This document shows, in pieces, positions 276 through 12,813 of a DNA stretch of 16,133 bases. The notes below the pieces were generated by a model. The model saw only the letters and a program-made list of their open reading frames with translations. It made no database searches and was not told where the DNA came from. The stretch comes from a virus. Its lineage: Duplodnaviria > Heunggongvirae > Uroviricota > Caudoviricetes. The first letter of the stretch is position 1. Each line of letters begins with the position of its first letter. A program made the position numbers and the translations under genes. Location: IMG/VR virus record IMGVR_UViG_3300027808_000017, positions 64,001 to 80,133 of that record. The stretch is one strand, 5' to 3'.

Positions 276-302
276 AAAAAAATAGACCCCGAAGGGTCTA
301 TT
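276..302 (-). terminator. Intrinsic terminator after the metallophosphoesterase
   Basis: Minus strand AATAGACCC-TTCG-GGGTCTATT followed by a T run, at the stop codon; cUUCGg tetraloop. Confidence 0.85.
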
Positions 303-904
303 TACATTGTAGGACCATTTCCTGATTTGAATCCTACTATCCCACCTTCGTCTTTGATGCGTTTTATAACATCTTCAAACAATATAGGTCTAAAGTCTGT
401 TTGTTCTACACATACGCAATGATATCTAGTATCGATTTCATCACTGTACAACATAGTACCAGTTTTAACATCATATCCACGGGGCTTTTTAACACGATTA
501 CTGTGCAAATGACCATGAATGTTGACACCAAAACGTCCCAAACTTTCTTCATGTACAGGTATATGACTCAATATCATACCGTTCATAACGTGATAGGCTC
601 GCAATTCACGGAAGTGTTCACGATATTCCTCGTCACGGAAAATGTCATGGTTACCACGAATCAATACCTTGTCACCGTTCAACCGATGTAATGTCTTTAA
701 TGCTTTGCGGTTAATAACTACATCACCCAAGTGATAAACTTTATCACTAGGCTTAACAGTTTCGTTCCATGCCTTGACTATAGCCTCGTCCATTTCATCT
801 GGATCAGTCCACGGGCGAATCTTCGTCACTCCGTCACTTTCAGTGAATCTACACACTCCAGCATGACCAAAGTGAGTGTCACTAACTAAAAATACTGATG
901 GCAT
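302..904 (-). CDS. Calcineurin-like metallophosphoesterase
   Basis: 200 aa with the motifs SDTHFGH, HLGDV, RGNHD, SH and HGHLH in canonical order. Confidence 0.9.
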   Translation of the reverse strand: MPSVFLVSDTHFGHAGVCRFTESDGVTKIRPWTDPDEMDEAIVKAWNETVKPSDKVYHLGDVVINRKALKTLHRLNGDKVLIRGNHDIFRDEEYREHFRELRAYHVMNGMILSHIPVHEESLGRFGVNIHGHLHSNRVKKPRGYDVKTGTMLYSDEIDTRYHCVCVEQTDFRPILFEDVIKRIKDEGGIVGFKSGNGPTM

Positions 905-1138: not shown

Positions 1139-1498
1139 TTATGCTAACATCCATGATTCATCTTGGTCTTTATATTCTATTGATTCATTACCATCATATT
1201 CTGCTATTCTAAACATTCTACCTTCTTTAACCCATTCAACTTCTAAATCTTTTAAACCACCTAGATATACATCAGGGTATTTCAATACCATAAAAGTTTC
1301 AAGTTCTTCAAATTTTCCTGCTGTTACCATGTGAACTATTGCTGGATCAAAAACTAGTTCAGGATATTGACGATTCCAACTGTACCATCCAGCACCAAAT
1401 CCAGGGCTATACACCACTGCAACAGCTCCAGCAACAACTACTTTACCTGTGTAAAGTTCGTCTGCTACTTCAACCTTGTCTCTCAACATAACTTCCAT
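1139..1498 (-). CDS. Hypothetical phage-type protein (119 aa)
   Basis: TAATG overlap with the upstream phosphatase stop; YSPGFGAGWYSWN motif; function unknown. Confidence 0.75.
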   Translation of the reverse strand: MEVMLRDKVEVADELYTGKVVVAGAVAVVYSPGFGAGWYSWNRQYPELVFDPAIVHMVTAGKFEELETFMVLKYPDVYLGGLKDLEVEWVKEGRMFRIAEYDGNESIEYKDQDESWMLA

Positions 1499-1992
1499 TA
1501 TACATCACCTTTATATTTTTTAGGTATAATCAATCCACTGTCTAATGTCACGCCATTGATAGTATGAGGTTCATTCTCATCATACGTCAATCCTAACACA
1601 CTCATCATTTTATGTTTCACTAACAAGTTTGGACTACGATAATCTTCTGTATCATCAAAGCCCATCATTATCCCAACCTCTGTTACTGCACCTGAACGAC
1701 ATACACCTGCGATACAATGCACAATTACATTACTACGATTAAGCAATGCTTGCTTTAGTATGATAACCAAACTCTTGGCTTGTTCATCGGTTATTTTCAT
1801 TTCAGGTTCAATACATTCATCCTCTTTTTCTAAATCTAAGAATTCAAATTGATGAACATTATTGAATTTGTATTTGGGTTCAGGGAATTCCATACCACAA
1901 TCAACAATCTGAATCAACACATTGTTGATACCTGGATCATAGTGTTTACCTTTTACGATATCACTCAGTGCTACATTTTGAATCCACGGCAT
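1498..1992 (-). CDS. Protein-tyrosine/dual-specificity-fold (CX5R) phosphatase, 164 aa
   Basis: VHCIAGVCRS P-loop. Start moved to MPWIQ (1992) because AAGGAG precedes it and the longer ORF start overlaps a consensus promoter. Confidence 0.8.
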   Translation of the reverse strand: MPWIQNVALSDIVKGKHYDPGINNVLIQIVDCGMEFPEPKYKFNNVHQFEFLDLEKEDECIEPEMKITDEQAKSLVIILKQALLNRSNVIVHCIAGVCRSGAVTEVGIMMGFDDTEDYRSPNLLVKHKMMSVLGLTYDENEPHTINGVTLDSGLIIPKKYKGDV

Positions 1993-2013
1993 GTTTTTCT
2001 CCTTCATTAGAGT

Positions 2014-2042
2014 ATTATATATGATTTGGGGATTATTGTCAA
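2014..2042 (-). promoter_or_regulatory. sigma70-type promoter
   Basis: TTGACA (2042-2037), 17-nt spacer, TATAAT (2019-2014). Confidence 0.85.
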
Positions 2043-2053
2043 GCGCAGAAAGT

Positions 2054-2148
2054 AACACCCTAGGTGCGCTAAAAAGTATTAATATATAAAGAACATGGAG
2101 TTGTTAGTAAAAACTCATCCGTATATGCGAGGGTTTATCTAGGGTGTT
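2054..2148 (-). repeat. 10-bp inverted repeat closing an AT-rich spacer
   Basis: AACACCCTAG at 2054-2063 and CTAGGGTGTT at 2139-2148; overlaps the end of element A. Confidence 0.5.
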
Positions 2149-2230
2149 TATATAAGCACACAATATCTCTTTCGCTTAGTAGAGCCTGTCTTATCGGGCA
2201 GGGTACTGATATAGTATACTTATATAAACA
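2145..2230 (-). ncRNA. Candidate structured RNA, long-terminal-stem element A
   Basis: TGTTTATATAAGTATAC pairs with GTGTGCTTATATAAACA (17 bp, two G-U on minus). Interior hairpins CCTG/CAGG and CTCT/AGAG. Confidence 0.5.
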
Positions 2231-2248
2231 GATGCCTTTCGGCATCTG
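2229..2248 (-). terminator. GC-rich hairpin, probable terminator of the TROVE-like gene
   Basis: CAGATGCC-GAAA-GGCATCTG then TTTAT, 15 nt after the stop. The U tract is short. Confidence 0.65.
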
Positions 2249-2263
2249 CTACTACTATTTAGC

Positions 2264-3691
2264 TTAAGCTAGGTCGTAGCGATCCTTCATAACGGTCTTC
2301 AACATGATTGCTTCCGGTGAGAAGTCATCCATGTTACCAGAAAGAATACCTTGTGCAACTGCTGGGCTAAATCCGGAGACTAGCGCAACACCTGCCTTGT
2401 TAAACTTAACTGGTGCGTTACCGTATGCGGCATTCAAGTTCCAGAATACTACCTTAGGTAGTTCGTAACCTGCTGCCTCGTACTTACGTGCTATCATTTC
2501 GATTGCAGAGTCATCGTGATGAACACCTGCATCAAATTGCATGTCACTGAAGATAACGATTGTACCTGGCATTTCTGCTTGAGGGACACTGTTATCTACC
2601 GCAGTCTTAAGCACTAAATCAAATGCCTTGTTCAAGTCGGTGTTAGCAACTTCACCAGTGTTCATTTGGTCAATCTTTTGATTGATGTTACCCTTTAGAG
2701 TAACCAGCTTTGGAGTACGACTAAAAGTCAAGAATGTATCCTTAAACTTACCAGTGTTCTTGTCTGCAAAATACAATCCCAATGAGATTGCAACGTCCAA
2801 ACAAGACAAAGTACTCTTGCTATCACGACCACCAACAAGACAAGTCATAGAACCTGAACTATCAACCATTGGCAACACGTTGGCATCACCGATGAAGTTT
2901 GGAAGTGCATCCCATTGGGCTTGCATTGCGTCCAATTCAGTCTTAGTCATTGCACTACGACCGTACTTGTTGATAGCACCCTTCAATACATCGTAAGGAT
3001 ATACAGCACCAGCGTTAATCTTAGCACCATCTTCGCCCTTAACCAACTTAGTTACGTATTCAGCATAAGTTGTACCATGACGACCAAAAGCCTTCTTGTA
3101 ACGTGCATGTGCCACTGATGGTACATGGTTGTAGTTGATGTTATCCCAATCGTTGGCACACATTTGTGTTTCAACAACATTGGTTAGTGCAACAAGGCTC
3201 TTACGATATATCTTCGGAGTCATACCAAAGAATTCACGGATTTCACGTGCAACATCGCCCTTACGCGGTGTCCACTTTGCAGCCAATCCATTACGATTAC
3301 GCAATGCATTGCCTAACATAGTGTATGCTTGTTCCTTAAGAGTCTTAGTCTTAAACACAAGCAAGTCATCGTAACGACCCAATTCAGGAACCTTAACCAA
3401 TAGACGGCTAGCATCTTCTGGGTTAGTTAGTTCCAAGTGAATTAGTACTTGACGAAATAATTCACGTTCGCCGGATCCACCACGTGCATCACGTGCCCAT
3501 TGAACAATACGTAATGCTAGGTCAGAATTTTCTACATAAGCCGCAGTGAATGCGGGTATAATGTTCTTACCACGGCTTGCACCGATGTTATAGAACAAGT
3601 CAACGCAAGCATTTGCAGTTGACTTACGTGCCTTCATACCGTTTGTGGTACGAACTTCTTGGTTTGCTACTGCTTCTACAAATGTTGACAT
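2264..3691 (-). CDS. DUF2828-family / TROVE(Ro60)-like helical domain plus vWA protein, 475 aa
   Basis: N-terminal WARDARGGSGERELFR, LGRYDDL and LAAKWTPR motifs. C-terminal vWA with MIDAS-like DSSGS, FSDMQFD, VFWNL and VSGFSP. AGGAG RBS. Confidence 0.8.
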   Translation of the reverse strand: MSTFVEAVANQEVRTTNGMKARKSTANACVDLFYNIGASRGKNIIPAFTAAYVENSDLALRIVQWARDARGGSGERELFRQVLIHLELTNPEDASRLLVKVPELGRYDDLLVFKTKTLKEQAYTMLGNALRNRNGLAAKWTPRKGDVAREIREFFGMTPKIYRKSLVALTNVVETQMCANDWDNINYNHVPSVAHARYKKAFGRHGTTYAEYVTKLVKGEDGAKINAGAVYPYDVLKGAINKYGRSAMTKTELDAMQAQWDALPNFIGDANVLPMVDSSGSMTCLVGGRDSKSTLSCLDVAISLGLYFADKNTGKFKDTFLTFSRTPKLVTLKGNINQKIDQMNTGEVANTDLNKAFDLVLKTAVDNSVPQAEMPGTIVIFSDMQFDAGVHHDDSAIEMIARKYEAAGYELPKVVFWNLNAAYGNAPVKFNKAGVALVSGFSPAVAQGILSGNMDDFSPEAIMLKTVMKDRYDLA

Positions 3692-3715
3692 ATTGTACTC
3701 CTTCCGTGTGTGTTA

Positions 3716-3773
3716 TGCAACAGGATACGCTTTTTTTCATTATGCTTGAAATTAAAGTTGCTGAAAGTATCCT
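3716..3773 (-). ncRNA. CAGCAA element 1 (5' leader of the TROVE-like gene)
   Basis: AGGATAC-TTT-CAGCAAC...GTATCCT-GTTG; perfect 7-bp closing stem (3767-3773 with 3722-3728). Confidence 0.6.
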
Positions 3774-3781
3774 AAAAAAGA

Positions 3782-3810
3782 ATTATATCACTGTTTGGAT
3801 ATAATGTAAA
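3782..3810 (-). promoter_or_regulatory. sigma70-type promoter for element 1 and the TROVE-like gene
   Basis: TTTACA (3810-3805), 17 nt, TATAAT (3787-3782), with TG extended -10. Confidence 0.8.
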
Positions 3811-3825
3811 TGTGTTTTGGATAAA

Positions 3826-4031
3826 CGGGATGTTCGTGACAGTTAGTTTATTTTCTGGACCAACCAATTATGTCACTCGGTCCATATCAACAATTCATGT
3901 TGACTATCTAGTACTTGTGTCTGCTACTAGAAACATAGAATGTCTTTCCAATCTGTCACCTATTCCTTCATGTCTTACGACTAACTTCAATAGTATTAGC
4001 TGTAGTTGTTTAAATTGCTGAAATCATCCCA
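3826..4031 (-). ncRNA. CAGCAA element 2 (~205 nt)
   Basis: GGGATG-ATTT-CAGCAA...CATCCC-GTT. Interior helices GTGACAG/CTGTCAC, TCTAGTA/TACTAGA, TCAACA/TGTTGA and TGGACC/GGTCCA. Confidence 0.65.
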
Positions 4032-4039
4032 GTAAAATT

Positions 4040-4174
4040 TTAAATTACTTCAAAATCTTCTTTGCCTACACCGCATTCGGGGCAGACATAAGTGTCTGGA
4101 AGTTCATTCCATGCACCTTCTAGTTCTTCATCGTGTACGTGACCGCATACGATACATACATGTTCTTCACTCAT
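4040..4174 (-). CDS. Rubredoxin (44 aa)
   Basis: Not in the ORF track. MSEEHVCIVCGHVHDEELEGAWNELPDTYVCPECGVGKEDFEVI has two CxxCG knuckles; ATGA overlap with rubrerythrin. Confidence 0.9.
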   Translation of the reverse strand: MSEEHVCIVCGHVHDEELEGAWNELPDTYVCPECGVGKEDFEVI

Positions 4175-4638
4175 TCTAAACTCTCCAAAACTTGTTGATA
4201 GCCTTCAGCATGTCGTTTTTCAACTTTAGCCAATGCCGCAAATCGTTTCTCTGCTTTAGCCAATAAAGTCTTAAACTGTTCAGCATGTGCAGAACTTTCA
4301 ACAATCTGGGTTCTAAACTCGTTTAATGCAATTTGGTTATTTTCTGCCTTAGCATCTTCTTCGAATCCCGGATACATTGTAGTGAACTCATATGTTTCAC
4401 CTTCAATTGCTTTCATCAAGCATTCTTTAGTTGTTGGCTTACCAATCAACAATTCTAAGTGACCCCACGCATGTAAAACTTCTTGAACAGCGGTGTGTTC
4501 AAAATGTCGTGCTACTTCTTCAAAGCCTTCTTCACGTGCAATTTTTGCAAAGTAGCGATACTTGATATGAGCCATTGACTCACCGGCTAATGCTGACTCA
4601 AGATTTTTTAGTGTGTTTGATATTTTATCAAATGGCAT
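4171..4638 (-). CDS. rbr: Rubrerythrin-family ferritin-like di-iron protein
   Basis: ALAGES, QEVLHA, EGETYE..MYPGF and ESSAHA di-iron motifs; no C-terminal rubredoxin domain. Confidence 0.88.
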   Translation of the reverse strand: MPFDKISNTLKNLESALAGESMAHIKYRYFAKIAREEGFEEVARHFEHTAVQEVLHAWGHLELLIGKPTTKECLMKAIEGETYEFTTMYPGFEEDAKAENNQIALNEFRTQIVESSAHAEQFKTLLAKAEKRFAALAKVEKRHAEGYQQVLESLE

Positions 4639-4665
4639 ATTTTTTTTCCTTTTAAAAAATGATAG

Positions 4666-4830
4666 CAGGATCGTTGTTGACTGCTTGTTTAGCCAGGGCC
4701 ATCACACCTGGTTCGTTAGTCTTGCTTCAATAATACCCTTCAACGCTCGGTGTTTTTAAGCACTCTGCTCCAGTTACTACCGTAGTGTCTAACAGTCCAT
4801 AGTTAAGGAGTTTGTTGCTGTGCCGATCCT
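4666..4830 (-). ncRNA. CAGCAA element 3 (leader of rubrerythrin)
   Basis: AGGATCG-GCA-CAGCAAC...CGATCCT-GCT; perfect 7-bp closing stem (4824-4830 with 4667-4673). Interior GACTG/CAGTC and CCAGG/CCTGG. Confidence 0.65.
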
Positions 4831-4854
4831 AAAAATTAATCATTCAATACGTAT

Positions 4855-4883
4855 ATTATATATGAGTTTGTCTTTACCGTCAA
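4855..4883 (-). promoter_or_regulatory. sigma70-type promoter
   Basis: TTGACG (4883-4878), 17 nt, TATAAT (4860-4855). Confidence 0.8.
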
Positions 4884-4904
4884 TGACTTTTGGGCAAACT
4901 GTCT

Positions 4905-4992
4905 TGGCGGAAGCGGTGAGATTCGAACTCACGGAACCTTTCGATTCTCTAGTTTTCAAGACTAGCGCCATAGGCCACTCGACCACGCTTCC
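4905..4992 (-). tRNA. tRNA-Ser(TGA)
   Basis: Cloverleaf with long variable arm, loop CT-TGA-AA, G73, CCA. Confidence 0.95.
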
Positions 4993-5001
4993 TTTTAATG
5001 A

Positions 5002-5214
5002 TTAACGCTCAACCTTTTTGATTCGTTTTAGATATTCACGATTGATTAAACCTTCTTCAATCTCACGTAATGCGGTTACTGCATGACCATTTTTTGTTTT
5101 TACTTTCGGGCGATGACCTGCCGTTAATTCTCTAACACGTTGACTTGCTATAAGAATTAAATCGTATCTATTGCCTATAGCATTCACTGCGGCTTCACTT
5201 GTTTGTCTTGGCAT
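5002..5214 (-). CDS. rpoZ: RNA polymerase omega subunit homolog (70 aa)
   Basis: NRYDLILIASQRVREL...VTALREIEEG matches the omega signature. Start at MPRQ (5214) after AAGGA; the longer ORF start lies inside tRNA-Gly. Confidence 0.88.
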   Translation of the reverse strand: MPRQTSEAAVNAIGNRYDLILIASQRVRELTAGHRPKVKTKNGHAVTALREIEEGLINREYLKRIKKVER

Positions 5215-5232
5215 TATCGTCCTTGGGTTATT

Positions 5233-5307
5233 TGGAGCAGGATATCGGGTTCGAACCGATGACATTTTCGTTGGCAACGAAACATTCTACCACTGAATTA
5301 ATCCTGC
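5233..5307 (-). tRNA. tRNA-Gly(GCC)
   Basis: GCAGGAT/ATCCTGC acceptor, loop TT-GCC-AA, U73, CCA. Confidence 0.95.
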
Positions 5308-5595: not shown

Positions 5596-5727
5596 TTATT
5601 TTCCTTGTCCTCTGTATGCTTTGAATGTCTTACGACGGCATTTGTTCATACTACTTGTTTTAGCTTTACCACCTTGACATGTTTTTTTAGTAATCACATG
5701 ACCTTTTGTATTACGACCTTGTGCCAT
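5596..5727 (-). CDS. Small basic protein (43 aa) ending YRGQGK
   Basis: Not in the ORF track. MAQGRNTKGHVITKKTCQGGKAKTSSMNKCRRKTFKAYRGQGK; TAATG overlap with the parvulin stop; 13 K/R and no acidic residue. Confidence 0.75.
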   Translation of the reverse strand: MAQGRNTKGHVITKKTCQGGKAKTSSMNKCRRKTFKAYRGQGK

Positions 5728-5999
5728 TATGCAATCCTTTGAATCAAGTGATAACCAAACTGAGTTTGAACAGGTTGACTTAAGCCGCCCACTTCTAATC
5801 CGTACGTAGCATCTTCAAACGGTTTAACCATTTGACCACGGCCAAATTCTCCCAAGTCGCCCCCATTGCGACCACTTGGACACTTGCTGTGTGCTTGTGC
5901 TAGTGTACTGAAATCTTCACCATTGTTTTTAACTTTGATGTATAAATCCATTGCATCACTTAGTGATTCTACTAAAATATGTTTTGCTCTTACTTGCAT
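5727..5999 (-). CDS. ppiC: Parvulin-type peptidyl-prolyl isomerase (90 aa)
   Basis: VRAKHILV, AQAHSKCPSG..GGDLGEF..GQMVKPFE and TQFGYHLI motifs. Start at 5999; the longer ORF begins inside tRNA-Pro. Confidence 0.92.
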   Translation of the reverse strand: MQVRAKHILVESLSDAMDLYIKVKNNGEDFSTLAQAHSKCPSGRNGGDLGEFGRGQMVKPFEDATYGLEVGGLSQPVQTQFGYHLIQRIA

Positions 6000-6019
6000 T
6001 AGTTTCTTTCTATAAATTT

Positions 6020-6096
6020 TGGTCGGAGTACAAGGATTCGAACCTTGGACCCCCTGGTCCCAAACCAGGTGCGCTACCAGACTGCGCCACACTCCG
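6020..6096 (-). tRNA. tRNA-Pro(TGG)
   Basis: CGGAGTG acceptor, loop TT-TGG-GA, CCA. Confidence 0.95.
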
Positions 6097-6336
6097 TTAT
6101 TCTTTCTTTCTTAAAATCATTCCAACATACGTGCCAAAAAATGCACCTATGCCTGCTGGAACTAATAACCAATAGTTAGTAGTATAATTGATAACTGCTA
6201 CACACGCGGTTATGAATACAACTGTCGCCCACACACTGGCTTTTGTTACTTGGTCATCTTGTACAGCTTTCAAGTAGTAAGTATAAAAGATATCCGTAAA
6301 AAATACAGCAAAAAAGGTTATAATATATTCTAGCAT
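6097..6336 (-). CDS. Small membrane protein (79 aa)
   Basis: About three hydrophobic segments and a basic C-terminus; stop abuts tRNA-Pro. Confidence 0.75.
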   Translation of the reverse strand: MLEYIITFFAVFFTDIFYTYYLKAVQDDQVTKASVWATVVFITACVAVINYTTNYWLLVPAGIGAFFGTYVGMILRKKE

Positions 6337-6352
6337 TTAAATGATTAGTTGT

Positions 6353-6427
6353 TGGTTGCAGGGGACGGAATCGCACCGCCGATCTTTAGCTTATGAGACT
6401 AACGAGATACTACTTCTCCACCCCGCG
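6353..6427 (-). tRNA. tRNA-Met(CAT), initiator-like
   Basis: C1:A72 mismatch, loop CT-CAT-AA, CCA. Lacks the three G-C pairs of the anticodon stem. Confidence 0.85.
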
Positions 6428-6448
6428 ATATATTTAGTTGTGTTTATG

Positions 6449-6523
6449 TGGTGCTTGATAAAAGATTTGAACTTTTGACCTCTTGCATGTCGAGCAAGCG
6501 CACTACCCCTGTGCTAATCAAGC
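6449..6523 (-). tRNA. tRNA-Val(GAC)
   Basis: Cloverleaf, loop TC-GAC-AT, CCA. Confidence 0.93.
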
Positions 6524-6525
6524 GA

Positions 6526-6714
6526 TTATTCGTTGTCAGTACTTTCAACTTTTTCAAAACGTAATTTGATTCCTTGACTTAAATCAAATCCATTTAACAA
6601 ACCAGAGTCTCTGTCTGCTTGTAATTCAGGCCAGATGAATGCAGGATCATACCTATCACCTAGTACTCTTACTGTTTTGTATAGTTTGTTGTTGATGTAA
6701 ATTTTTAACTTCAT
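6526..6714 (-). CDS. Hypothetical protein (62 aa)
   Basis: ORF between two tRNAs with an AAGGA RBS. Confidence 0.7.
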   Translation of the reverse strand: MKLKIYINNKLYKTVRVLGDRYDPAFIWPELQADRDSGLLNGFDLSQGIKLRFEKVESTDNE

Positions 6715-6742
6715 AGTATGTTCCTTGACATACTATATTTAT
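6713..6742 (-). promoter_or_regulatory. Late-promoter-like ATAAATA adjoining an RBS/start-occluding hairpin
   Basis: Minus strand ATAAAT-ATAGTATG-TCAAGGAA-CATACTAT-G; the 8-bp stem encloses the RBS and includes the AT of the ATG. Confidence 0.55.
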
Positions 6743-6748
6743 GATTCT

Positions 6749-6822
6749 TGGTGGAGGATGGGAGAATCGAACTCCCACGAAGACCTTGCAAAGGTCCCAG
6801 GCTCCCATTACATCAATCCCCC
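6749..6822 (-). tRNA. tRNA-Cys(GCA), atypical A73
   Basis: GGGGGAT/ATCCTCC acceptor, loop TT-GCA-A, 3' end ACCA. Confidence 0.88.
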
Positions 6823-7066
6823 AAATCATATCGTATATACGGCGTAGACGTTACATGGTTATAGTCAAACTGTAATCTATAGCACAATCTATCAGTAATT
6901 CCACCTAATCGCTTATGTAAGGTGATACTGTTATCAAACAACAATAAATCAGTATCATTTTCATACCAGTGTTCGTGCGTGTGTATTCTTCAATAAATAA
7001 TTCTTTTTTGATTCTTTCCAAAAGTTTTTCAGATTCAAAGTCACTCATTCCCTCAATTTTATCAAT
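6813..7066 (-). pseudogene. Truncated, frameshifted TauD/TfdA-like dioxygenase C-terminal remnant
   Basis: Frame 1 reads NSIDKIEGMSDFESEKLLERIKKELFIEEYT. After a 2-nt shift in the AC run (~6979-6984) it reads HEHWYENDTDLLLFDNSITLHKRLGGITDRLCYRLQFDY, matching the TauD HxW...DN...H.R...R C-terminus. Confidence 0.7.
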
Positions 7067-7611
7067 ACTATTTCTTTTAAAATTTCTAAATTATCAGGAT
7101 TAAAAATATTAGGTTTATGTGTATAATCGTATTCTACGTGAAAGTCTAAAATACTTTTATTAAATGTTCGTGTTAAGAAATCTCCTATATATAAATTCAT
7201 TCCTATGAACAAATCTATATCTTTGGTGGTAATGTTAAATCTAGTTGGTCCATTAAACATTAAATGTTCATAAATGAAAGTTGTACCTTCATTAATACTA
7301 ATATCAAACGGGACAATTTTAACTGTTTCATTTTCAATAACAGCGACTGGTGATTCAATTGGTTGAACAAAAGTTGCTGTTCCTTCTGTACTATTAATTA
7401 GTGCAGGATACGTAGCAGTACAATTAGTTAGAGTAACACTACCACTTTGAACACTAATTACGATATTGTAACTACCATGCAACTTTGTATTAGTAATAAA
7501 AGAAAACAATTCATCTTGACCATTGTCAACAATCTGACCATTTACCGTAACTGTGTAATTAGTATCGGGAGTTTTACTACCATACATTCGTAATGTTCTA
7601 TGAGAATCCAT
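7045..7611 (-). CDS. Hypothetical beta-rich protein (188 aa)
   Basis: Start at MDSHR (7611) after AGGA; the longer ORF begins inside tRNA-Leu. No family recognised. Confidence 0.75.
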   Translation of the reverse strand: MDSHRTLRMYGSKTPDTNYTVTVNGQIVDNGQDELFSFITNTKLHGSYNIVISVQSGSVTLTNCTATYPALINSTEGTATFVQPIESPVAVIENETVKIVPFDISINEGTTFIYEHLMFNGPTRFNITTKDIDLFIGMNLYIGDFLTRTFNKSILDFHVEYDYTHKPNIFNPDNLEILKEIVLIKLRE

Positions 7612-7625
7612 GCTATTCCTTAATT

Positions 7626-7709
7626 TGGTGCCCCAGGTCGGACTCGAACCGACACGCCTTTCGGCACTGGCTTCTAAGACCAGCGTGGCTACCATTACAC
7701 CACCGGGGC
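7626..7709 (-). tRNA. tRNA-Leu(TAG)
   Basis: Long variable arm, loop CT-TAG-AA, A73, CCA. Confidence 0.95.
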
Positions 7710-7718
7710 AAACATTCT

Positions 7719-7804
7719 TGGTGCGAGTGGCCGGAGTCGAACCGGCACACCATTATGATATCAGATTTTAAGTCTGAGGCGTCTACCTATTTCGCCACAC
7801 TCGC
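7719..7804 (-). tRNA. tRNA-Leu(TAA)
   Basis: Long variable arm, loop CT-TAA-AA, CCA. Confidence 0.95.
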
Positions 7805-7811
7805 AAAATTT

Positions 7812-7885
7812 TGGAGCGGGGTAGGAGAATCGAACTCCTCGCTTTAGATTGGAAATCTAAGGTATTACCACTATACGAACCCCGC
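7812..7885 (-). tRNA. tRNA-Gly(TCC)
   Basis: GCGGGGT/ACCCCGC acceptor, loop TT-TCC-AA, U73, CCA. Confidence 0.95.
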
Positions 7886-7897
7886 ATAAATACTACT

Positions 7898-8062
7898 ATG
7901 CACACGTATGACGCTATCACTGATTCAGGATTATTAATCCATCTTTCAATGAGTAACGATTCCATCTGTTACATCATCGTGCATAATATTTACTCTCACA
8001 AAACTAGAATGAAATACTTTACTGATACTGAATCAGCTATTTACTTCATACATTCATTATAA
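7898..8062 (+). CDS. Possible small plus-strand protein (54 aa)
   Basis: MHTYDAITDSG...FIHSL fills the gap between tRNA-Gly and the radical SAM stop. ATAAATA at 7886-7892 lies just upstream; no SD sequence. Confidence 0.45.
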   Translation: MHTYDAITDSGLLIHLSMSNDSICYIIVHNIYSHKTRMKYFTDTESAIYFIHSL

Positions 8063-9025
8063 TTTCCTTTTACTTATAATTATATCAGTAGAGCAATGAC
8101 AATCCTTCTGTACGCATATTTCGGGTTCAGTAGGCCATTCTATTTGTTCTGGATAATTTATATTACCTATTATTCTAGTAGGTGTTCCTTGTTTACAATT
8201 GGCACGTTGTATGTCACCATCCCAATGTACAAACAAACTTTCTAATCCTATATCACACTGCCACCCATAAAAGTTATTAAGACCTGTGTTAATTATATCA
8301 ATCTCCGGAACATTATATTCATTAGTATTGTCATCCCAGTAATACCGAGCTGACATTGCTACTCCCTTTTTTTGAATCAGTCTTGGATTCAGTAACCAAT
8401 ACATAAATCCTGAATTTTTTTGGGGATGATCTAATATCCATTGATTTTGCTCAGGTGTATAATTTCTACCTAATGAATTACCAACACCCCAGTCTTGCAG
8501 TTGTACTGCCTCTACACCTACTCCAGTTGTTTTTGAATCAAAAGCATGATATGTTTCTACACACTTTTCCCAATATCTATTATCCATCATAACACGTACA
8601 CTAGTGTGTGTATGTTTGATGGTTGCAAATACTTTCTCTTTGAAAGCAGGATCCTCAAAACTAGGATGAAAGCTAAAACACATACCATTGACATATTGAG
8701 CTATGTCCTCATAATATCTAGGTGTTCTTACCCCATTTGTAGTTATAGAAATAGTATGGCCGGCATTATAAAATATCTTAATCAATTCAGGTAGATGTGG
8801 ACTCAATGTAGGCTCACCGCCGGCAATACTGAGATGTATTTTTTCATGTCTACCTATCAATTCATAAACAAATCTTTTAGCATTTTCCCAATCATAGTGG
8901 TGATTTTTTCCATTATGCAATCCTTCAGGACAGTAACTACATGCATTGGTACATATGTTATTGATTATCCAAGTTAATTGCATGACTTTAGGAGTTTGTG
9001 TAATAGCGATTAACTTGCGTGTCAT
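8057..9025 (-). CDS. Radical SAM protein with Cys-rich C-terminal (SPASM/twitch-like) extension
   Basis: CTNACSYC (CxxxCxxC), GGEP, and C-terminal C..G...DGDI..ANC...C..C.C. Start at MTRK (9025) gives an ATGA overlap. Confidence 0.9.
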   Translation of the reverse strand: MTRKLIAITQTPKVMQLTWIINNICTNACSYCPEGLHNGKNHHYDWENAKRFVYELIGRHEKIHLSIAGGEPTLSPHLPELIKIFYNAGHTISITTNGVRTPRYYEDIAQYVNGMCFSFHPSFEDPAFKEKVFATIKHTHTSVRVMMDNRYWEKCVETYHAFDSKTTGVGVEAVQLQDWGVGNSLGRNYTPEQNQWILDHPQKNSGFMYWLLNPRLIQKKGVAMSARYYWDDNTNEYNVPEIDIINTGLNNFYGWQCDIGLESLFVHWDGDIQRANCKQGTPTRIIGNINYPEQIEWPTEPEICVQKDCHCSTDIIISKRKL

Positions 9026-10377
9026 AGTATATCCTTTACAGCTCCACATCGTTCTCTATTCCAAACATCATCAAGTGTTAATTGAATCTCTGGATTAATA
9101 ATGTAAAGTTGCGCTAATATTTTCTGTTGTTGTGCGTGACAAAAATCATGTCCAAATATCATTTGTCCTGCATCGGTGCTGAATATATTACTTAAATTCA
9201 TCCAAACCTTATCATATTCTTGAATGATATCCAATAGAGGAATAGCGTCTTTGTAAAGATCAACTTGTAAGAATTTTACATGTCGTTGTTTAAAATCTTG
9301 CCAATAATGTATAAAGTTTTCTTCACTTCCAAAATGTCGAAATATTTCATTCATTCCATTTTGAAAACCCTGATCCTCTATATATTCTGAACTATGTCGT
9401 CCTATCCATGTAAAATGATTACGTTCAGGGAAGGCTCTAATACAAGACAATATATCATTGTTAGTCCAAGTATACATGTGTTGATACCAACGTAATGCAA
9501 TAGGATTAAAATCATACACCACTATCATTGCATCAGTAGTTAATCTTTGTGGGTGTTTGAACATATCAAACAACTTAAAACCACTCGCAGTATTAATAAC
9601 TAAATCAAATATTCCCTTACTACGAATGTTCATTTCTTCTGAATTGAATAACCATATTTGATCTTTAACTGCAATGCTATCTTCAATCCATTTATTTTGA
9701 TTCCAATTTTGTTCTAAGAATGGAGTCAATGTTTCAATACTTTGTAAGAATTTGTCTGTGTTATCATCCGGATAAGTATAAAATTTACTCAGTCTTATTG
9801 TTTCTGATAATGCAATCACAGGCCAGTTGTTTTGCATCAATGCTAAGGTTAATTTCCACCCTGGACTTAACTGCATCTGTTCTGAAAATATTCTAGTAGG
9901 TCTTACCCATAATGGAGTATAATCGTGATGAAAATTTTCTTCACTACGTTCAATCACCGGTAACAATTTAGGACCTCTTTCCCAATCTCCAAATTCAGGT
10001 CTACCAACTTCTACCCAGGCTTTAATATTTACAATAAAGAATTGATAGTGTAGCTCTAACCAGTGATTTGGATGACATAGAGGATGACCTGCAACACCAA
10101 ATGTATTTTCAGAAATAAACTGATCAAGGTCATTGACAAAATTAAAATTACGTATTTGACAACCTGCGGCAACAACTACACAATAATCAAATTGTTCAAT
10201 CGATGCTTGTTCTAATATTTCACGTATCTCATCCTTGCAAATAATTCTCAAGGGAGATGGTTGAACATTACTAAGTCTTTCAAGATAAAAAAGAGTTGCC
10301 CCTTTAGCCCTAAGATACATCTTAGTATTATTAATTTGTTTACGTTGGTTATAAACCCCATACATAATTCTATGCAT
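9022..10377 (-). CDS. Uncharacterised 451-aa protein, possibly two-domain (GT-like N-terminus, Rossmann/MTase-like C-terminus)
   Basis: Long ORF overlapping both neighbours. DYCVVVAAG and DLVINTASG..VVYDFN segments are only suggestive of the folds. Confidence 0.6.
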   Translation of the reverse strand: MHRIMYGVYNQRKQINNTKMYLRAKGATLFYLERLSNVQPSPLRIICKDEIREILEQASIEQFDYCVVVAAGCQIRNFNFVNDLDQFISENTFGVAGHPLCHPNHWLELHYQFFIVNIKAWVEVGRPEFGDWERGPKLLPVIERSEENFHHDYTPLWVRPTRIFSEQMQLSPGWKLTLALMQNNWPVIALSETIRLSKFYTYPDDNTDKFLQSIETLTPFLEQNWNQNKWIEDSIAVKDQIWLFNSEEMNIRSKGIFDLVINTASGFKLFDMFKHPQRLTTDAMIVVYDFNPIALRWYQHMYTWTNNDILSCIRAFPERNHFTWIGRHSSEYIEDQGFQNGMNEIFRHFGSEENFIHYWQDFKQRHVKFLQVDLYKDAIPLLDIIQEYDKVWMNLSNIFSTDAGQMIFGHDFCHAQQQKILAQLYIINPEIQLTLDDVWNRERCGAVKDIL

Positions 10378-11047
10378 GGTTAAACCTTTCAATTGCCTGA
10401 CGCTTTAATCTTTCTTCACCTGATCCATGTACAATGAAATGGTATCGATGTTCATCTGATTGATTCCAGACCATGTGTTCATTTCCTATATCTAGCATAA
10501 AGCCATGACCTTGTTTAAAAGGTACACGACCCCATTTACGAAAATAAAACTCACAATTGTCAGGATTATTAATAGCGATGTTCAATGGTCCAAACATTCT
10601 TCCAACGCCATCATTATGTGGCATTATATACCCACTCGCATGTAATTTCATAATGCGTACACGCTCATAGGTTTGATAACCCAAAGACTTAATAAATTCG
10701 GTGCATGTAGGGAAGTACTCACATGCGTCTGTCCAATGATAATTAGCTTCTTCTACAGTTTTATAACCATATTGTTCATAATTTTCTGTAGCTGTTGGAC
10801 TAATTCCATGCAATGTAATTGCCGCCCAACCCTCATGATTGTAACTATACTGACGATCCTTTTGTCTATGTCCCACAAACATGTGGTCATTATCAATACA
10901 TTCTTTATGCATTTTTTTAAAATCTACTGAGAATGTTATAGGAAACCACGGCCAATCTGACCTGTCTAAACTAGTCGGCGCAGGTATTGTAGGTTGCCAT
11001 TGGTTTGTTAAACTTTCTTTAATGAATTCGTTTAAAATTTCTTTCAT
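10370..11047 (-). CDS. 2OG-Fe(II) oxygenase, Asp/Asn beta-hydroxylase-like
   Basis: RVRIMKL..GYIMPHNDG (HxD), distal H in NEHMVWN and R in HRYHFIVHG. Confidence 0.85.
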   Translation of the reverse strand: MKEILNEFIKESLTNQWQPTIPAPTSLDRSDWPWFPITFSVDFKKMHKECIDNDHMFVGHRQKDRQYSYNHEGWAAITLHGISPTATENYEQYGYKTVEEANYHWTDACEYFPTCTEFIKSLGYQTYERVRIMKLHASGYIMPHNDGVGRMFGPLNIAINNPDNCEFYFRKWGRVPFKQGHGFMLDIGNEHMVWNQSDEHRYHFIVHGSGEERLKRQAIERFNHA

Positions 11048-11982
11048 ATTATTTCTATATCAATAGCACGTTTAATCTTAGAAAATACTTCCAGATTCCA
11101 AGATTTTCTAAGTTCGCTGTGGGGGACTAACCAATCTTCCTTATTAGGATGAAAATTTAAAAATGTCTCATCAAGGGCTATTACACCTAAATAATATCTA
11201 CCTAAAGCTAATTCTAATAAATTATCTATTGGTATCTTAGATTGTAATTCGGATGATTGCTTAATGTACCATTTCCAAAACTGTCTTTCTGTACTTTTAT
11301 GAGCATTACCAGATGAGTCGCCGAAATTCAACCAGGCTTCAGAACAGAATGTTTCTTGAACCTTAATCATATTATTAGTAATTACTCTTGTGTCATCATC
11401 TTCCATGACATGTTGCCAATCTTTACCTAAAGTATTATATCCTAAGTATAACTGACCCCAAGTAAAATCTGTATCTAAAAATAACTTGTCAGTGGGTGTT
11501 ACTGGCTCTCCCCTTTCAAAGGGTTCATATTGAACCAAACAACTAAACTGAGGGAAGGGACCAGTGTCAATAGCTGTTTCTAAAATATGTATGTACTCAT
11601 TCAATTTTAGCCATGTATGATGAAATTCTTCTCCGGGAAATAGATTAGAGTCTTTTCCCTGACGTTCGCCATATAATTCAAATTCTTCATGCAAATGATT
11701 CAAAGTGTTTGCGTTTATTTCAGCAGTGCTAGTGTAAATCGGTAATTGCTTGTCATAATAACTATTAATCTTATCAATTATTTCATTAATAATTGACATC
11801 AATAATTCTAGATCCGTTAAAGTTTTGTTACTAATCTTTAACTCTAACGAATCATTTGTAGCCTTACGGCGGTCTACAATTGATATCCATCTGTCTAATA
11901 AACTAGTATAAGGTAGATGATACTGTAATTTTAAATGTTCACCACTTTCCAATTCAAAATGAAATATTGCAATTCTATTCAT
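11044..11982 (-). CDS. Uncharacterised 312-aa protein, first gene of the cassette
   Basis: Long ORF with an ATGA overlap to the oxygenase; no function recognised. Confidence 0.75.
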   Translation of the reverse strand: MNRIAIFHFELESGEHLKLQYHLPYTSLLDRWISIVDRRKATNDSLELKISNKTLTDLELLMSIINEIIDKINSYYDKQLPIYTSTAEINANTLNHLHEEFELYGERQGKDSNLFPGEEFHHTWLKLNEYIHILETAIDTGPFPQFSCLVQYEPFERGEPVTPTDKLFLDTDFTWGQLYLGYNTLGKDWQHVMEDDDTRVITNNMIKVQETFCSEAWLNFGDSSGNAHKSTERQFWKWYIKQSSELQSKIPIDNLLELALGRYYLGVIALDETFLNFHPNKEDWLVPHSELRKSWNLEVFSKIKRAIDIEII

Positions 11983-12581: not shown

Positions 12582-12813
12582 TTTGTAAGCCTACGCCGCT
12601 TTTATCGTAGATTTATTCAGGACTTACCGGCCGCCTAGCCTGACCTCGCTCGCTGCGCTCACGATGGATATCACTTGGGATCCATCCAGCGTAGTCTCCT
12701 TTACAGACCCTTGCAGTTCCCCGCAGGGTGGGAGTTGAACCCATTTGCCTTTTACTGTTTTGGTCCTTCGAAGAAACCTAGACAGCGTGACTTCACTTGC
12801 TGACGCTTACAAA
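12582..12813 (-). ncRNA. ~230-nt structured RNA with a T-arm, manA-motif-like
   Basis: Closing stem TTTGTAAGC/GCTTACAAA; GCGT-CAGCAAG...ACGC-TG; T-arm ATGGG-TTCAACT-CCCAC; helices GATGGAT/ATCCATC, CGCTG/CAGCG and CTACG/CGTAG. The manA resemblance is from memory. Confidence 0.7.

What the first reader, a model, noticed from the sequence alone, without database searches (positions are those of the whole stretch)
2264..4830. Ro60/TROVE-like vWA gene surrounded by three homologous CAGCAA stem-closed RNAs: candidate non-canonical Ro-Y RNA system
Seen in sequence: three intergenic elements (3716-3773, 3826-4031, 4666-4830) share one architecture on the minus strand. Each has a GGAT-containing 6-7-bp helix, a 3-4-nt linker, invariant CAGCAA, a variable interior (about 30, 180 and 140 nt), the complementary strand, then GYT. 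The closing helix differs in sequence between copies but stays fully paired (AGGATAC/GTATCCT, GGGATG/CATCCC, AGGATCG/CGATCCT). The trailing GYT could pair with the AGC of CAGCAA as a short pseudoknot. Element 1 starts essentially at the predicted start site of the promoter driving the TROVE-like gene. Established knowledge: Ro60/Rsr are TROVE+vWA rings that bind Y RNAs through a terminal helix with variable interiors, and their RNA genes often lie next to the protein gene. Inference: these are Y-like ligands or cis autoregulatory sites for this DUF2828-type protein, whose RNA partner I do not know to be described.
Basis: partly seen in the sequence, partly recalled or inferred. Interest (0 to 1): 0.85.

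Follow-up and report, generated by a model that had tools for sequence, protein, structure and literature searches.

The report
Ro60-like phage protein with partner RNAs
An uncultured freshwater giant phage encodes a ring-shaped protein that folds like the RNA-surveillance protein Ro60, and three small structured RNAs beside the gene share one conserved "handle". They are probably the protein's RNA partners, in an RNA family I found in neither Rfam nor the papers searched.

Summary
Three minus-strand elements (3773-3719, 4030-3824, 4830-4664) share a terminal 7-bp helix (N-GGAU-NN), a 3-4 nt linker, invariant CAGCAA, a variable core, the complementary strand and G-Y-U. The pattern occurs 3 times against 0.13 expected.

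In 80 related jumbo-phage loci the helix covaries (A-U/G-C/U-A at pair 1; three pair types at pair 6, four at pair 7). The 165-nt element has four more covarying helices.

The 475-aa gene (DUF2828+DUF7788, PHROG 850) folds as a Ro60 ring plus vWA domain (Z 21.8 to Xenopus Ro60).

Helix-closed CAGCAA elements also flank homologues in most of eight cultured phages examined. They are about 9-fold enriched, on the gene strand only, in 80 prokaryote-genome loci. Longer members in relatives carry YrlA-like tRNA mimics.

Best reading (0.7): a non-canonical Ro60/Y-RNA-type particle. The first element may also act as an autoregulatory mRNA leader. Binding is inferred, not shown.

The handle also mirrors Dictyostelium Class I RNAs, always below Rfam's threshold.

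This scan has already reported the same system on other DNA many times. I found no paper or Rfam family describing it.

The parts
2264..3691 (-). 475-aa gene for a Ro60-like protein: a TROVE-like HEAT-repeat ring plus a vWA domain with a complete MIDAS motif
   Evidence: Pfam DUF7788 (1e-40) and DUF2828 (2.7e-26). PHROG 850 'RNA-binding protein', 3.7e-139. AF2 model pLDDT 91.5. Top 13 Foldseek PDB hits are all Ro60/TROVE. VIA-align Z 21.8, rmsd 4.0, 412 residues to 1yvp. D277, S279, S281, T351 and D383 are invariant in 74 homologues.
2228..2249 (-). Terminator-like hairpin (8-9 bp, GAAA loop, then UUAUAUAA) just after the stop codon
   Evidence: Read directly from the sequence. The consensus scan did not call it, so it is tentative.
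3719..3773 (-). E1, short 'type A' handle RNA (55 nt): the first bases of the Ro60-like gene's transcript. The handle ends 27 nt before the ATG.
   Evidence: 74 of 76 related loci have a type A copy ending 25-35 nt before the ATG. Helix covariation in 53 distinct copies. RF01414 26.3 bits, full length.
3782..3810 (-). Sigma-70-type promoter (TTTACA, 17 nt, TG-n-TATAAT) that starts transcription at or next to the first base of E1
   Evidence: 11 of 12 matches, TG extension.
3824..4030 (-). E2, long 'type B' handle RNA (207 nt) with a multi-hairpin core. No gene start follows it.
   Evidence: Fold z -4.5. 21 homologues of 189-287 nt share conserved blocks; pair 1 of the closing helix is U-A, G-C or A-U, and an inner helix has compensatory changes.
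4040..4638 (-). Rubrerythrin (4638-4171) and rubredoxin (4174-4040) genes lying between E3 and E2. This is context, not part of the RNA-protein system.
   Evidence: Pfam. In many relatives types C and B are 25 nt or less apart, with no genes between them.
4664..4830 (-). E3, 'type C' handle RNA (167 nt) with four further covarying helices
   Evidence: Alignment of 29 copies: 96.7% of cells paired against 34-48% when partners are slid; covariation score 0.433 against 0.04-0.09; 0 of 500 shuffles reach it.
4855..4883 (-). Sigma-70-type promoter (TTGACG, 17 nt, TATAAT) about 18 nt upstream of E3's first base
   Evidence: 11 of 12 matches. It implies a short 5' leader that would have to be trimmed, or read-through from the tRNA array.
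12582..12813 (-). Possible fourth, divergent member: a 9-bp helix (UUUGUAAGC), GU, CAGCAA and a 200-nt core with a T-arm-like hairpin, between tRNA-Tyr and tRNA-Trp
   Evidence: Descriptor scan and fold. The copy in a 359-kb relative keeps the helix through one C-G to U-A change. No Rfam match. It lacks the GGAU helix and the trailing G, so it is tentative.

Best explanation
The locus encodes a Ro60/Y-RNA-type ribonucleoprotein of a non-canonical kind.

Shown:
- The DUF2828/DUF7788 protein is predicted to be a Ro60-like ring closed by a vWA/MIDAS domain.
- On the strand of the phage tRNA array lie RNAs that all end in the same handle: a 7-bp terminal helix with an invariant GGAU core, single-stranded CAGCAA 3-4 nt after the 5' strand, and G-Y-U after the 3' strand.
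- The helix covaries, and the 165-nt core is a conserved structure.
- The handle keeps company with this gene family in distant lineages.

Inferred:
- The handle is the docking site for the protein, as the terminal stem of a Y RNA is for Ro60.
- The variable cores are interchangeable adapter modules that recruit or gate other factors, for example host exoribonucleases or tRNA enzymes. Here the cores are a mini-hairpin, a ~165-nt four-helix module and a ~200-nt multi-hairpin module; in relatives there is also a YrlA-like tRNA mimic.
- E1 forms the first 55 nt of the protein's own mRNA, so it would let the protein autoregulate. Alternatively it is cut off as a small RNA.
- The role in infection (RNA quality control, or protection of the phage tRNA pool) is a guess.
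For: Protein:
- AF2 model pLDDT 91.5.
- All 13 Foldseek PDB hits with E <= 0.001 are Ro60/TROVE, TM 0.39-0.63.
- Z 21.8 over 412 residues to Xenopus Ro60, against about 10-11 for vWA-only hits.
- The Swiss-Prot models on top are Ro60 and Tetrahymena p80.
- The MIDAS motif is intact.

RNA:
- The pattern occurs 3 times against 0.13 expected.
- In 115 distinct copies from 80 related loci, pairs 2-5 are invariant. Pair 1 is A-U 92, G-C 11, U-A 12. Pair 6 is G-C 60, C-G 32, A-U 23. Pair 7 pairs in 108 of 115 although it was not required.
- Matches to the pattern inside the coding region have no 3' partner.
- The type C structure is strongly supported.

Linkage:
- In complete 338-364-kb genomes the matches cluster within 11-16 kb around the gene, on its strand.
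- In most of 8 cultured phages, compact helix-closed CAGCAA elements lie close to the homologue. Four of these loci are outside tRNA arrays: mycobacteriophage Moostard, Staphylococcus S-CoN_Ph5, Campylobacter CP30A and Sinorhizobium phiM19. In KVP40 no compact copy was found.
- In 80 prokaryote-genome loci there are 126 closed elements on the gene strand (58 loci) and 19 on the other strand. Six control hexamers, five of them permutations of the motif's letters, give 9-16.

Y-RNA likeness:
- Longer members in relatives match YrlA end to end at 30.8-37.9 bits, with T-arm and D-arm look-alikes.

Presence in RNA libraries:
- Contigs from metatranscriptome libraries bridge E1-E2 and E1-E3 with the flanking genes.
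Against: - There is no binding data of any kind.
- The handle is a plain duplex without the bulged helix of metazoan Y RNAs, and I did not see the CGAA motif used to find the phiLo Yrl RNAs.
- The window's own three RNAs give no YrlA match at E <= 10, and no tRNA-like module.
- Sequence-level similarity to Ro60 is marginal: the profile search gives E about 0.06, over the vWA part only. Pfam TROVE is not among the families matched at E <= 0.01.
- 22 of 80 prokaryote loci showed no element within 3 kb by my descriptor.
- In jumbo phages some copies lie up to about 15 kb from the gene inside the tRNA array, so part of the linkage could be to tRNA arrays.
Confidence: 0.7

Rival explanations
1. The handle is a processing or stability signal for small RNAs of phage tRNA arrays: a clamp that protects both ends, or that marks RNase cleavage sites. 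The DUF2828 protein is linked only through a shared role in RNA metabolism and binds other RNAs, such as misfolded ones, not these.
For: In many relatives the elements sit head to tail, 25 nt or less apart (U-rich spacers in the copies I read) with no room for promoters, so they must be cut from a precursor. Copies lie among tRNA genes up to about 15 kb from the gene. Ro60 proteins are also known to bind misfolded RNAs (PMC12135203, introduction).
Against: The elements sit directly beside the gene in phages where it is not in a tRNA array: Moostard, S-CoN_Ph5, CP30A and phiM19. The proximal helix is fixed within a lineage (GGAU in 115 of 115 copies) but differs between lineages along with the protein. 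That suggests a lineage-specific reader, not a universal host RNase.
Confidence: 0.15
2. The elements are cis-acting 5' leaders (attenuator, riboswitch-like or mRNA-stabilising) that control the gene downstream of each: E3 for rubrerythrin and E1 for the DUF2828 gene.
For: E1 and E3 each end 25-30 nt before a ribosome-binding site and ATG. E1 starts at a predicted transcription start. Type A keeps its distance to the ATG in 74 of 76 loci.
Against: E2 is followed by a promoter and E1, not by a gene. In relatives types C, B and A stand in tandem with no genes between them. In Felix O1-type, Staphylococcus and mycobacteriophage genomes the copies lie downstream of the gene or among tRNAs. The cores differ completely while only the handle is shared, which is unlike a ligand-sensing leader.
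Confidence: 0.08
3. The elements are recombination or mobility cassettes, like the promoter-early stem-loops of T4-type phages, that shuffle genes such as the rubrerythrin-rubredoxin pair.
For: The rubrerythrin-rubredoxin pair lies exactly between two elements here and is absent at that place in many relatives.
Against: Compensatory changes preserve RNA pairing, not DNA identity. The elements are strand-specific relative to the gene. Cores are conserved as structures.
Confidence: 0.03

Closest known systems
Bacterial and phage Ro60 (Rsr) with Y RNAs of the YrlA/YrlB type (Chen et al. 2014, PMC4201824; Rfam RF02553)
   Same: A ring-plus-vWA protein, with several small RNA genes beside it on the same strand. 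The 5' and 3' ends of each RNA form a terminal stem, and the cores vary. In relatives of this phage one core is a T-arm/D-arm tRNA mimic that aligns end to end with the YrlA model.
   Different: The protein belongs to DUF2828/DUF7788, not Pfam TROVE. Sequence similarity to Ro60 is marginal. The handle is an unbulged 7-bp helix plus single-stranded CAGCAA and a trailing G. All YrlA scores are far below the gathering score of 69, and the window's three RNAs do not match at all.
Thermus phage phiLo Ro60 with Yrl1/Yrl2 (PMC12135203; PDB 9KOP, 9L5Y)
   Same: A phage-encoded Ro60-fold protein with two small RNAs just upstream of its gene. The model here matches these structures (Z 17.2 and 15.7). 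The paper reports RNA binding and ternary complexes with host PNPase.
   Different: phiLo Ro60 is a TROVE-family protein, 16% identical to this one. Its RNAs were picked by a CGAA motif in an internal bulge, not by a CAGCAA handle.
Dictyostelium Class I RNAs (Rfam RF01414; Kjellin et al. 2021, PMC7919456)
   Same: About 60 nt long. A G-initiated 6-7-bp terminal stem that covaries. An adjacent single-stranded motif ending in CAGCAA: E1 reads ACUUUCAGCAA against CCUUACAGCAA, so all five universally conserved positions match. A variable interior, and a C-UGU 3' end. The Rfam model aligns end to end (26.3 bits for E1, 34.5 for the best relative).
   Different: All scores are below the gathering score of 41.5. 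The promoter is bacterial, not DUSE. The host is a phage of bacteria. The long types B and C have no counterpart. The only known Class I partner is an RRM protein (Rnp1A), not a Ro60-like one. I could not test whether dictyostelids have a DUF2828 protein.
PHROG 850 'RNA-binding protein' and the SEA-PHAGES label 'Ro-like RNA binding protein'
   Same: The same protein family, full-length match. Homologues in 710 phage records, several already labelled Ro-like.
   Different: These are annotation labels only. I found no paper or Rfam family that describes the partner RNAs.

Membership tests
Ro60 / TROVE proteins (Rsr) | HEAT-repeat ring closed by a C-terminal vWA domain with a MIDAS motif | tested here: met
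   AF2 model pLDDT 91.5. Z 21.8, rmsd 4.0, 412 residues aligned to 1yvp. DxSxS...T...D invariant.
Ro60 / TROVE proteins (Rsr) | Significant sequence match to the TROVE family | tested here: not met
   At E <= 0.01 Pfam lists only DUF2828 and DUF7788. A profile of 74 homologues reaches Ro60 chains at E 0.06-0.15, over the vWA part only.
Ro60 / TROVE proteins (Rsr) | Binds Y RNA through its terminal helix | not testable with these tools
   No tool for protein-RNA complexes. Needs EMSA, RIP or a structure.
Pfam DUF2828 + DUF7788 / PHROG 850 | Profile match above the curated cut-off over the whole protein | tested here: met
   139.8 and 92.8 bits against cut-offs of 27.1 and 29. PHROG 850, residues 1-473 of 475, E 3.7e-139.
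Y RNAs (general) | 5' and 3' ends pair into a terminal stem, with a variable interior | tested here: met
   7-bp helix with compensatory changes at pairs 1, 6 and 7 in 115 copies.
Y RNAs (general) | Encoded next to the Ro60-type gene, on the same strand | tested here: met
   (126 elements on the gene strand, 19 on the other).
Y RNAs (general) | Conserved bulged helix as the Ro60 binding site | tested here: not met
   The helix is an uninterrupted duplex in all copies. The conserved element is instead single-stranded CAGCAA.
YrlA (Rfam RF02553) | Covariance-model score at or above the gathering score (69 bits) | tested here: not met
   No match to E1-E3 at E <= 10. Related 105-128-nt members score 30.8-37.9 bits.
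YrlA (Rfam RF02553) | tRNA-like domain with T-arm and D-arm | tested here: not met
   Absent from the window's E1-E3. Present in a sister RNA of relatives, L024:1579-1694.
Dictyostelium Class I RNA (Rfam RF01414) | Covariance-model score at or above the gathering score (41.5 bits) | tested here: not met
   E1 26.3 bits. Best relative 34.5. Distant phages 23-24.
Dictyostelium Class I RNA (Rfam RF01414) | Short covarying terminal stem, adjacent 11-nt motif, CUGU 3' end | tested here: met
   Sequence of E1 compared with the features listed in PMC7919456. The motif is identical at 9 of 11 positions, including all five universally conserved ones. The 3' end is C-UGU.
Dictyostelium Class I RNA (Rfam RF01414) | DUSE promoter about 60 nt upstream; dictyostelid genome | tested here: not met
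   A sigma-70 promoter abuts E1. The record is a phage contig with 23 tRNA genes and Shine-Dalgarno sites.

The most novel reading that the evidence does not exclude
The CAGCAA-handle RNAs of phages and bacteria and the Class I RNAs of dictyostelid amoebae are one ancient RNA class, related by descent or by transfer (for example through viruses of amoebae). Their shared handle is the docking site of DUF2828/Ro60-like proteins. On this reading the long-unexplained Class I RNAs would be Y-RNA-like partners of a Ro60-type ring.
Probability: 0.1. Interest if true: 0.9.

Novelty: new variant of a known kind. Interest (0 to 1): 0.75.

Why it matters
Ro60 and its Y RNAs are a conserved but still poorly understood RNA-surveillance system. 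This locus belongs to a second, sequence-divergent branch of it.

That branch has its own RNA handle and swappable RNA cores. It occurs in hundreds of cultured phages (Felix O1-type, KVP40, and Listeria, Staphylococcus, Campylobacter and Mycobacterium phages), so binding and function can be tested at the bench now.

The finding would also explain many unannotated gaps in phage tRNA arrays. It further gives a concrete, testable idea for the partner of the Dictyostelium Class I RNAs.

Tried and rejected
- Rfam at gathering thresholds finds only 23 tRNAs in the window.
- Megablast against phage records finds only tRNA-sized matches, so no close cultured relative.
- A single-sequence search of PDB sequences finds nothing useful.
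- Single-sequence folds of E1 and E3 are no better than shuffles, so I relied on alignments.
- RNAalifold on type A recovers only the closing helix, because the inner mini-hairpin is poorly aligned.
- The proposed GYU-AGC pseudoknot cannot be tested. CAGCAA is invariant, and the U/C change in the tail is one-sided.
- Metatranscriptome data are contigs only, so they show no ends, strand or level. I do not use the low-cover stretch after the gene, or the contig breaks near 2363, as evidence. I also do not use a 102-nt contig of high depth that matches only 35 nt of the type C core.
- AlphaFold DB clusters and the ESM Atlas gave no organism names that would show whether dictyostelids have a DUF2828 protein.
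- Paper searches for DUF2828, DUF7788, Ro-like phage proteins, and Dictyostelium with Ro60 found no description of these RNAs.
- The possible fourth element has no Rfam match. Only its 5' part is conserved in two relatives.
- I did not use complex prediction, because it does not take RNA.
Full report
**Setting.** The window is part of a 27.7-kb IMG/VR virus record. Its relatives are complete 338-364-kb jumbo phages from fresh water. Almost all genes lie on the minus strand, among 23 tRNA genes, with sigma-70-type promoters and Shine-Dalgarno sites.

**Observation.** On the minus strand, E1 (3773-3719), E2 (4030-3824) and E3 (4830-4664) each read as follows:
- a 6-7-bp helix strand containing GGAU;
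- 3-4 nt of linker;
- CAGCAA;
- a core of 29, 182 or 141 nt;
- the complementary strand;
- G-Y-U.

GGAT-N(3-8)-CAGCAA occurs 3 times against 0.13 expected, and 0 of 200 shuffles reach 3. It occurs nowhere else in the record. A near-consensus extended -10 promoter (3810-3782) puts the start at the first base of E1. E2 alone folds with z -4.5. E1 and E3 alone are unremarkable.

**Comparative evidence for the RNAs.** A search with the neighbouring protein gave 80 loci at 75-100% protein identity. Nearly all carry one to four copies of the motif, on the gene's strand and upstream of it. Each copy has a complementary 3' strand followed by G-Y-U, whereas motif matches inside the coding region have none.

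In 115 distinct copies:
- pairs 2-5 (GGAU/AUCC) never vary;
- pair 1 is A-U 92, G-C 11, U-A 12;
- pair 6 is G-C 60, C-G 32, A-U 23;
- pair 7, which my search did not require, is paired in 108 of 115.

The copies fall into size classes:
- type A, 54-64 nt, like E1;
- type B, 189-287 nt, like E2;
- type C, 104-172 nt, like E3;
- a class of 105-126 nt, mostly among the tRNA genes and not found in this window.

Type A ends 25-35 nt before the ATG in 74 of 76 loci. For type C, 96.7% of cells are paired against 34-48% when partners are slid, the covariation score is 0.433 against 0.04-0.09, and 16 of 29 pairs have double changes. Type B shares conserved blocks and compensated helices. In many relatives C, B and A stand 25 nt or less apart, which implies a common precursor that is processed. 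Here a rubrerythrin-rubredoxin pair lies between C and B.

**The protein.**
- The 475-aa product matches Pfam DUF7788 and DUF2828 and PHROG 850 'RNA-binding protein'.
- With 73 homologues at 40-57% identity, AlphaFold2 gives pLDDT 91.5.
- All 13 Foldseek PDB hits with E <= 0.001 are Ro60/TROVE structures from Xenopus, human, Deinococcus and Thermus phage phiLo.
- VIA-align gives Z 21.8 (rmsd 4.0, 412 residues) to Xenopus Ro60, well above vWA-only hits at Z 10-11.
- The reviewed-protein models on top are Ro60 and Tetrahymena telomerase p80.
- The MIDAS residues are invariant.
- At the sequence level the link is marginal: E about 0.06, over the vWA part only.

**Linkage beyond this clade.** tblastn finds homologues in 710 phage records, some already labelled 'Ro-like RNA binding protein'. 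I fetched eight of them and scanned for CAGCAA closed by a helix.
- Felix O1-type phage humlepung has four copies in the tRNA array after the gene.
- Listeria LP-125 has three in tandem just before the gene.
- Mycobacteriophage Moostard and Staphylococcus S-CoN_Ph5 each have three in tandem just after it.
- Bacillus Thrax1 has five.
- Campylobacter CP30A and Sinorhizobium phiM19 each have one just before it.
- KVP40 has one long element among its tRNA genes, and a motif just before the gene with no convincing partner strand.

The helix sequence differs between lineages (AGACC, AGGAA, UGGAC, AAGAC) but is shared within a genome.

In 80 loci from prokaryote genome assemblies with homologues at 34-62% identity, I count 126 closed elements on the gene strand (58 loci) and 19 on the other strand. 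Six control hexamers, five of them permutations of the motif's letters, give 9-16. In complete jumbo genomes the matches cluster within 11-16 kb around the gene, on its strand.

**Relation to known RNA families.** No family reaches its Rfam threshold. Two sub-threshold matches recur and span the whole model.
- **YrlA (RF02553)** matches the longer members in relatives and in distant lineages at 30.8-37.9 bits. The alignment puts the handle on the outer stem of YrlA and shows T-arm (GGUUCGAUUCC) and D-arm look-alikes.
- **Dictyostelium Class I RNA (RF01414)** matches the short members at 23-34.5 bits; E1 scores 26.3. The published Class I features are a G-initiated covarying 6-bp stem, an adjacent CCUUACAGCAA motif with five universal positions, a variable interior and a CUGU end (PMC7919456). 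All are mirrored in E1. The promoter type, the host and the score threshold are not.

**Presence in RNA libraries.** Six metatranscriptome runs hold the locus. Contigs from two of them bridge 2363-4399 and 3623-4932. These are contigs, so they show neither ends nor levels.

**Interpretation.** The protein fold, the RNA covariation, and the strand-specific linkage across unrelated phages (some without tRNA arrays) all point the same way. So do the YrlA-like cores that carry the same handle. Together they indicate a Ro60/Y-RNA-type particle in which the CAGCAA handle docks to the DUF2828 ring and the cores act as adapters. E1 may double as an autoregulatory leader of the gene's own mRNA. Binding and function are inferred. 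I put the reading at 0.7. The main rival is that the handle is a processing or stability clamp read by something else (0.15).

**Prior knowledge.** Phage Ro60 proteins with Y-like RNAs are known (PMC4201824; PMC12135203). The protein family here already carries 'RNA-binding' labels. I found no paper or Rfam family for the CAGCAA RNAs. This scan has reported the same system on other DNA many times. I reached the reading before consulting those notes, and re-tested the fold, the covariation, the cultured-phage examples and the enrichment myself.

Noticed in passing
window 12582-12813 (-): A 232-nt intergenic element between tRNA-Tyr and tRNA-Trp. It is closed by a 9-bp helix followed by GU-CAGCAA and contains a T-arm-like hairpin (GGGUUCAACUCCC). 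The helix is kept through one C-G to U-A change in a 359-kb relative. It is a possible divergent member of the same RNA family.
   Followed up: partly
window 4040-4638 (-): A rubrerythrin gene (155 aa) and a rubredoxin gene (44 aa) overlap by 4 nt. They lie exactly between two handle RNAs that are adjacent in many related phages, so they look like an inserted cargo cassette.
   Followed up: partly
window 302-904 and 1498-2058 (-): A metallophosphoesterase (PHROG 547) and a dual-specificity-phosphatase-like protein lie just downstream of the Ro60-like gene. Bacillus phage Thrax1 has a metallophosphatase, and Listeria phage LP-125 an RtcB ligase, near their homologues. This hints at an RNA end-healing or repair neighbourhood.
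   Followed up: no
window 5002-5277 (-): A 91-aa ORF matches RNA polymerase Rpb6/omega (E 2.5e-12). Its listed TTG start overlaps tRNA-Gly (5233-5307), so the true start is probably further in.
   Followed up: no
window 5727-11982 (-): Protein genes are interspersed in the tRNA array: a PpiC-type prolyl isomerase, a radical SAM protein, an Asp/Arg beta-hydroxylase-like protein and several ORFs with no family.
   Followed up: no
I did not examine it.
   Followed up: no
L086:2471-3022 (Listeria phage LP-125): A full-length ROOL RNA match at 87.4 bits (gathering score 99.1) lies about 1 kb upstream of that phage's DUF2828 gene and its three handle RNAs.
   Followed up: no
window 4738-4772: In two metatranscriptome runs (X1, X18), a short contig from a related strain overlaps the conserved type C core. 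The X1 contig is 102 nt with a depth figure of about 1700. Such contigs cannot rank abundance, so this is only a hint that type C RNAs accumulate.
   Followed up: no
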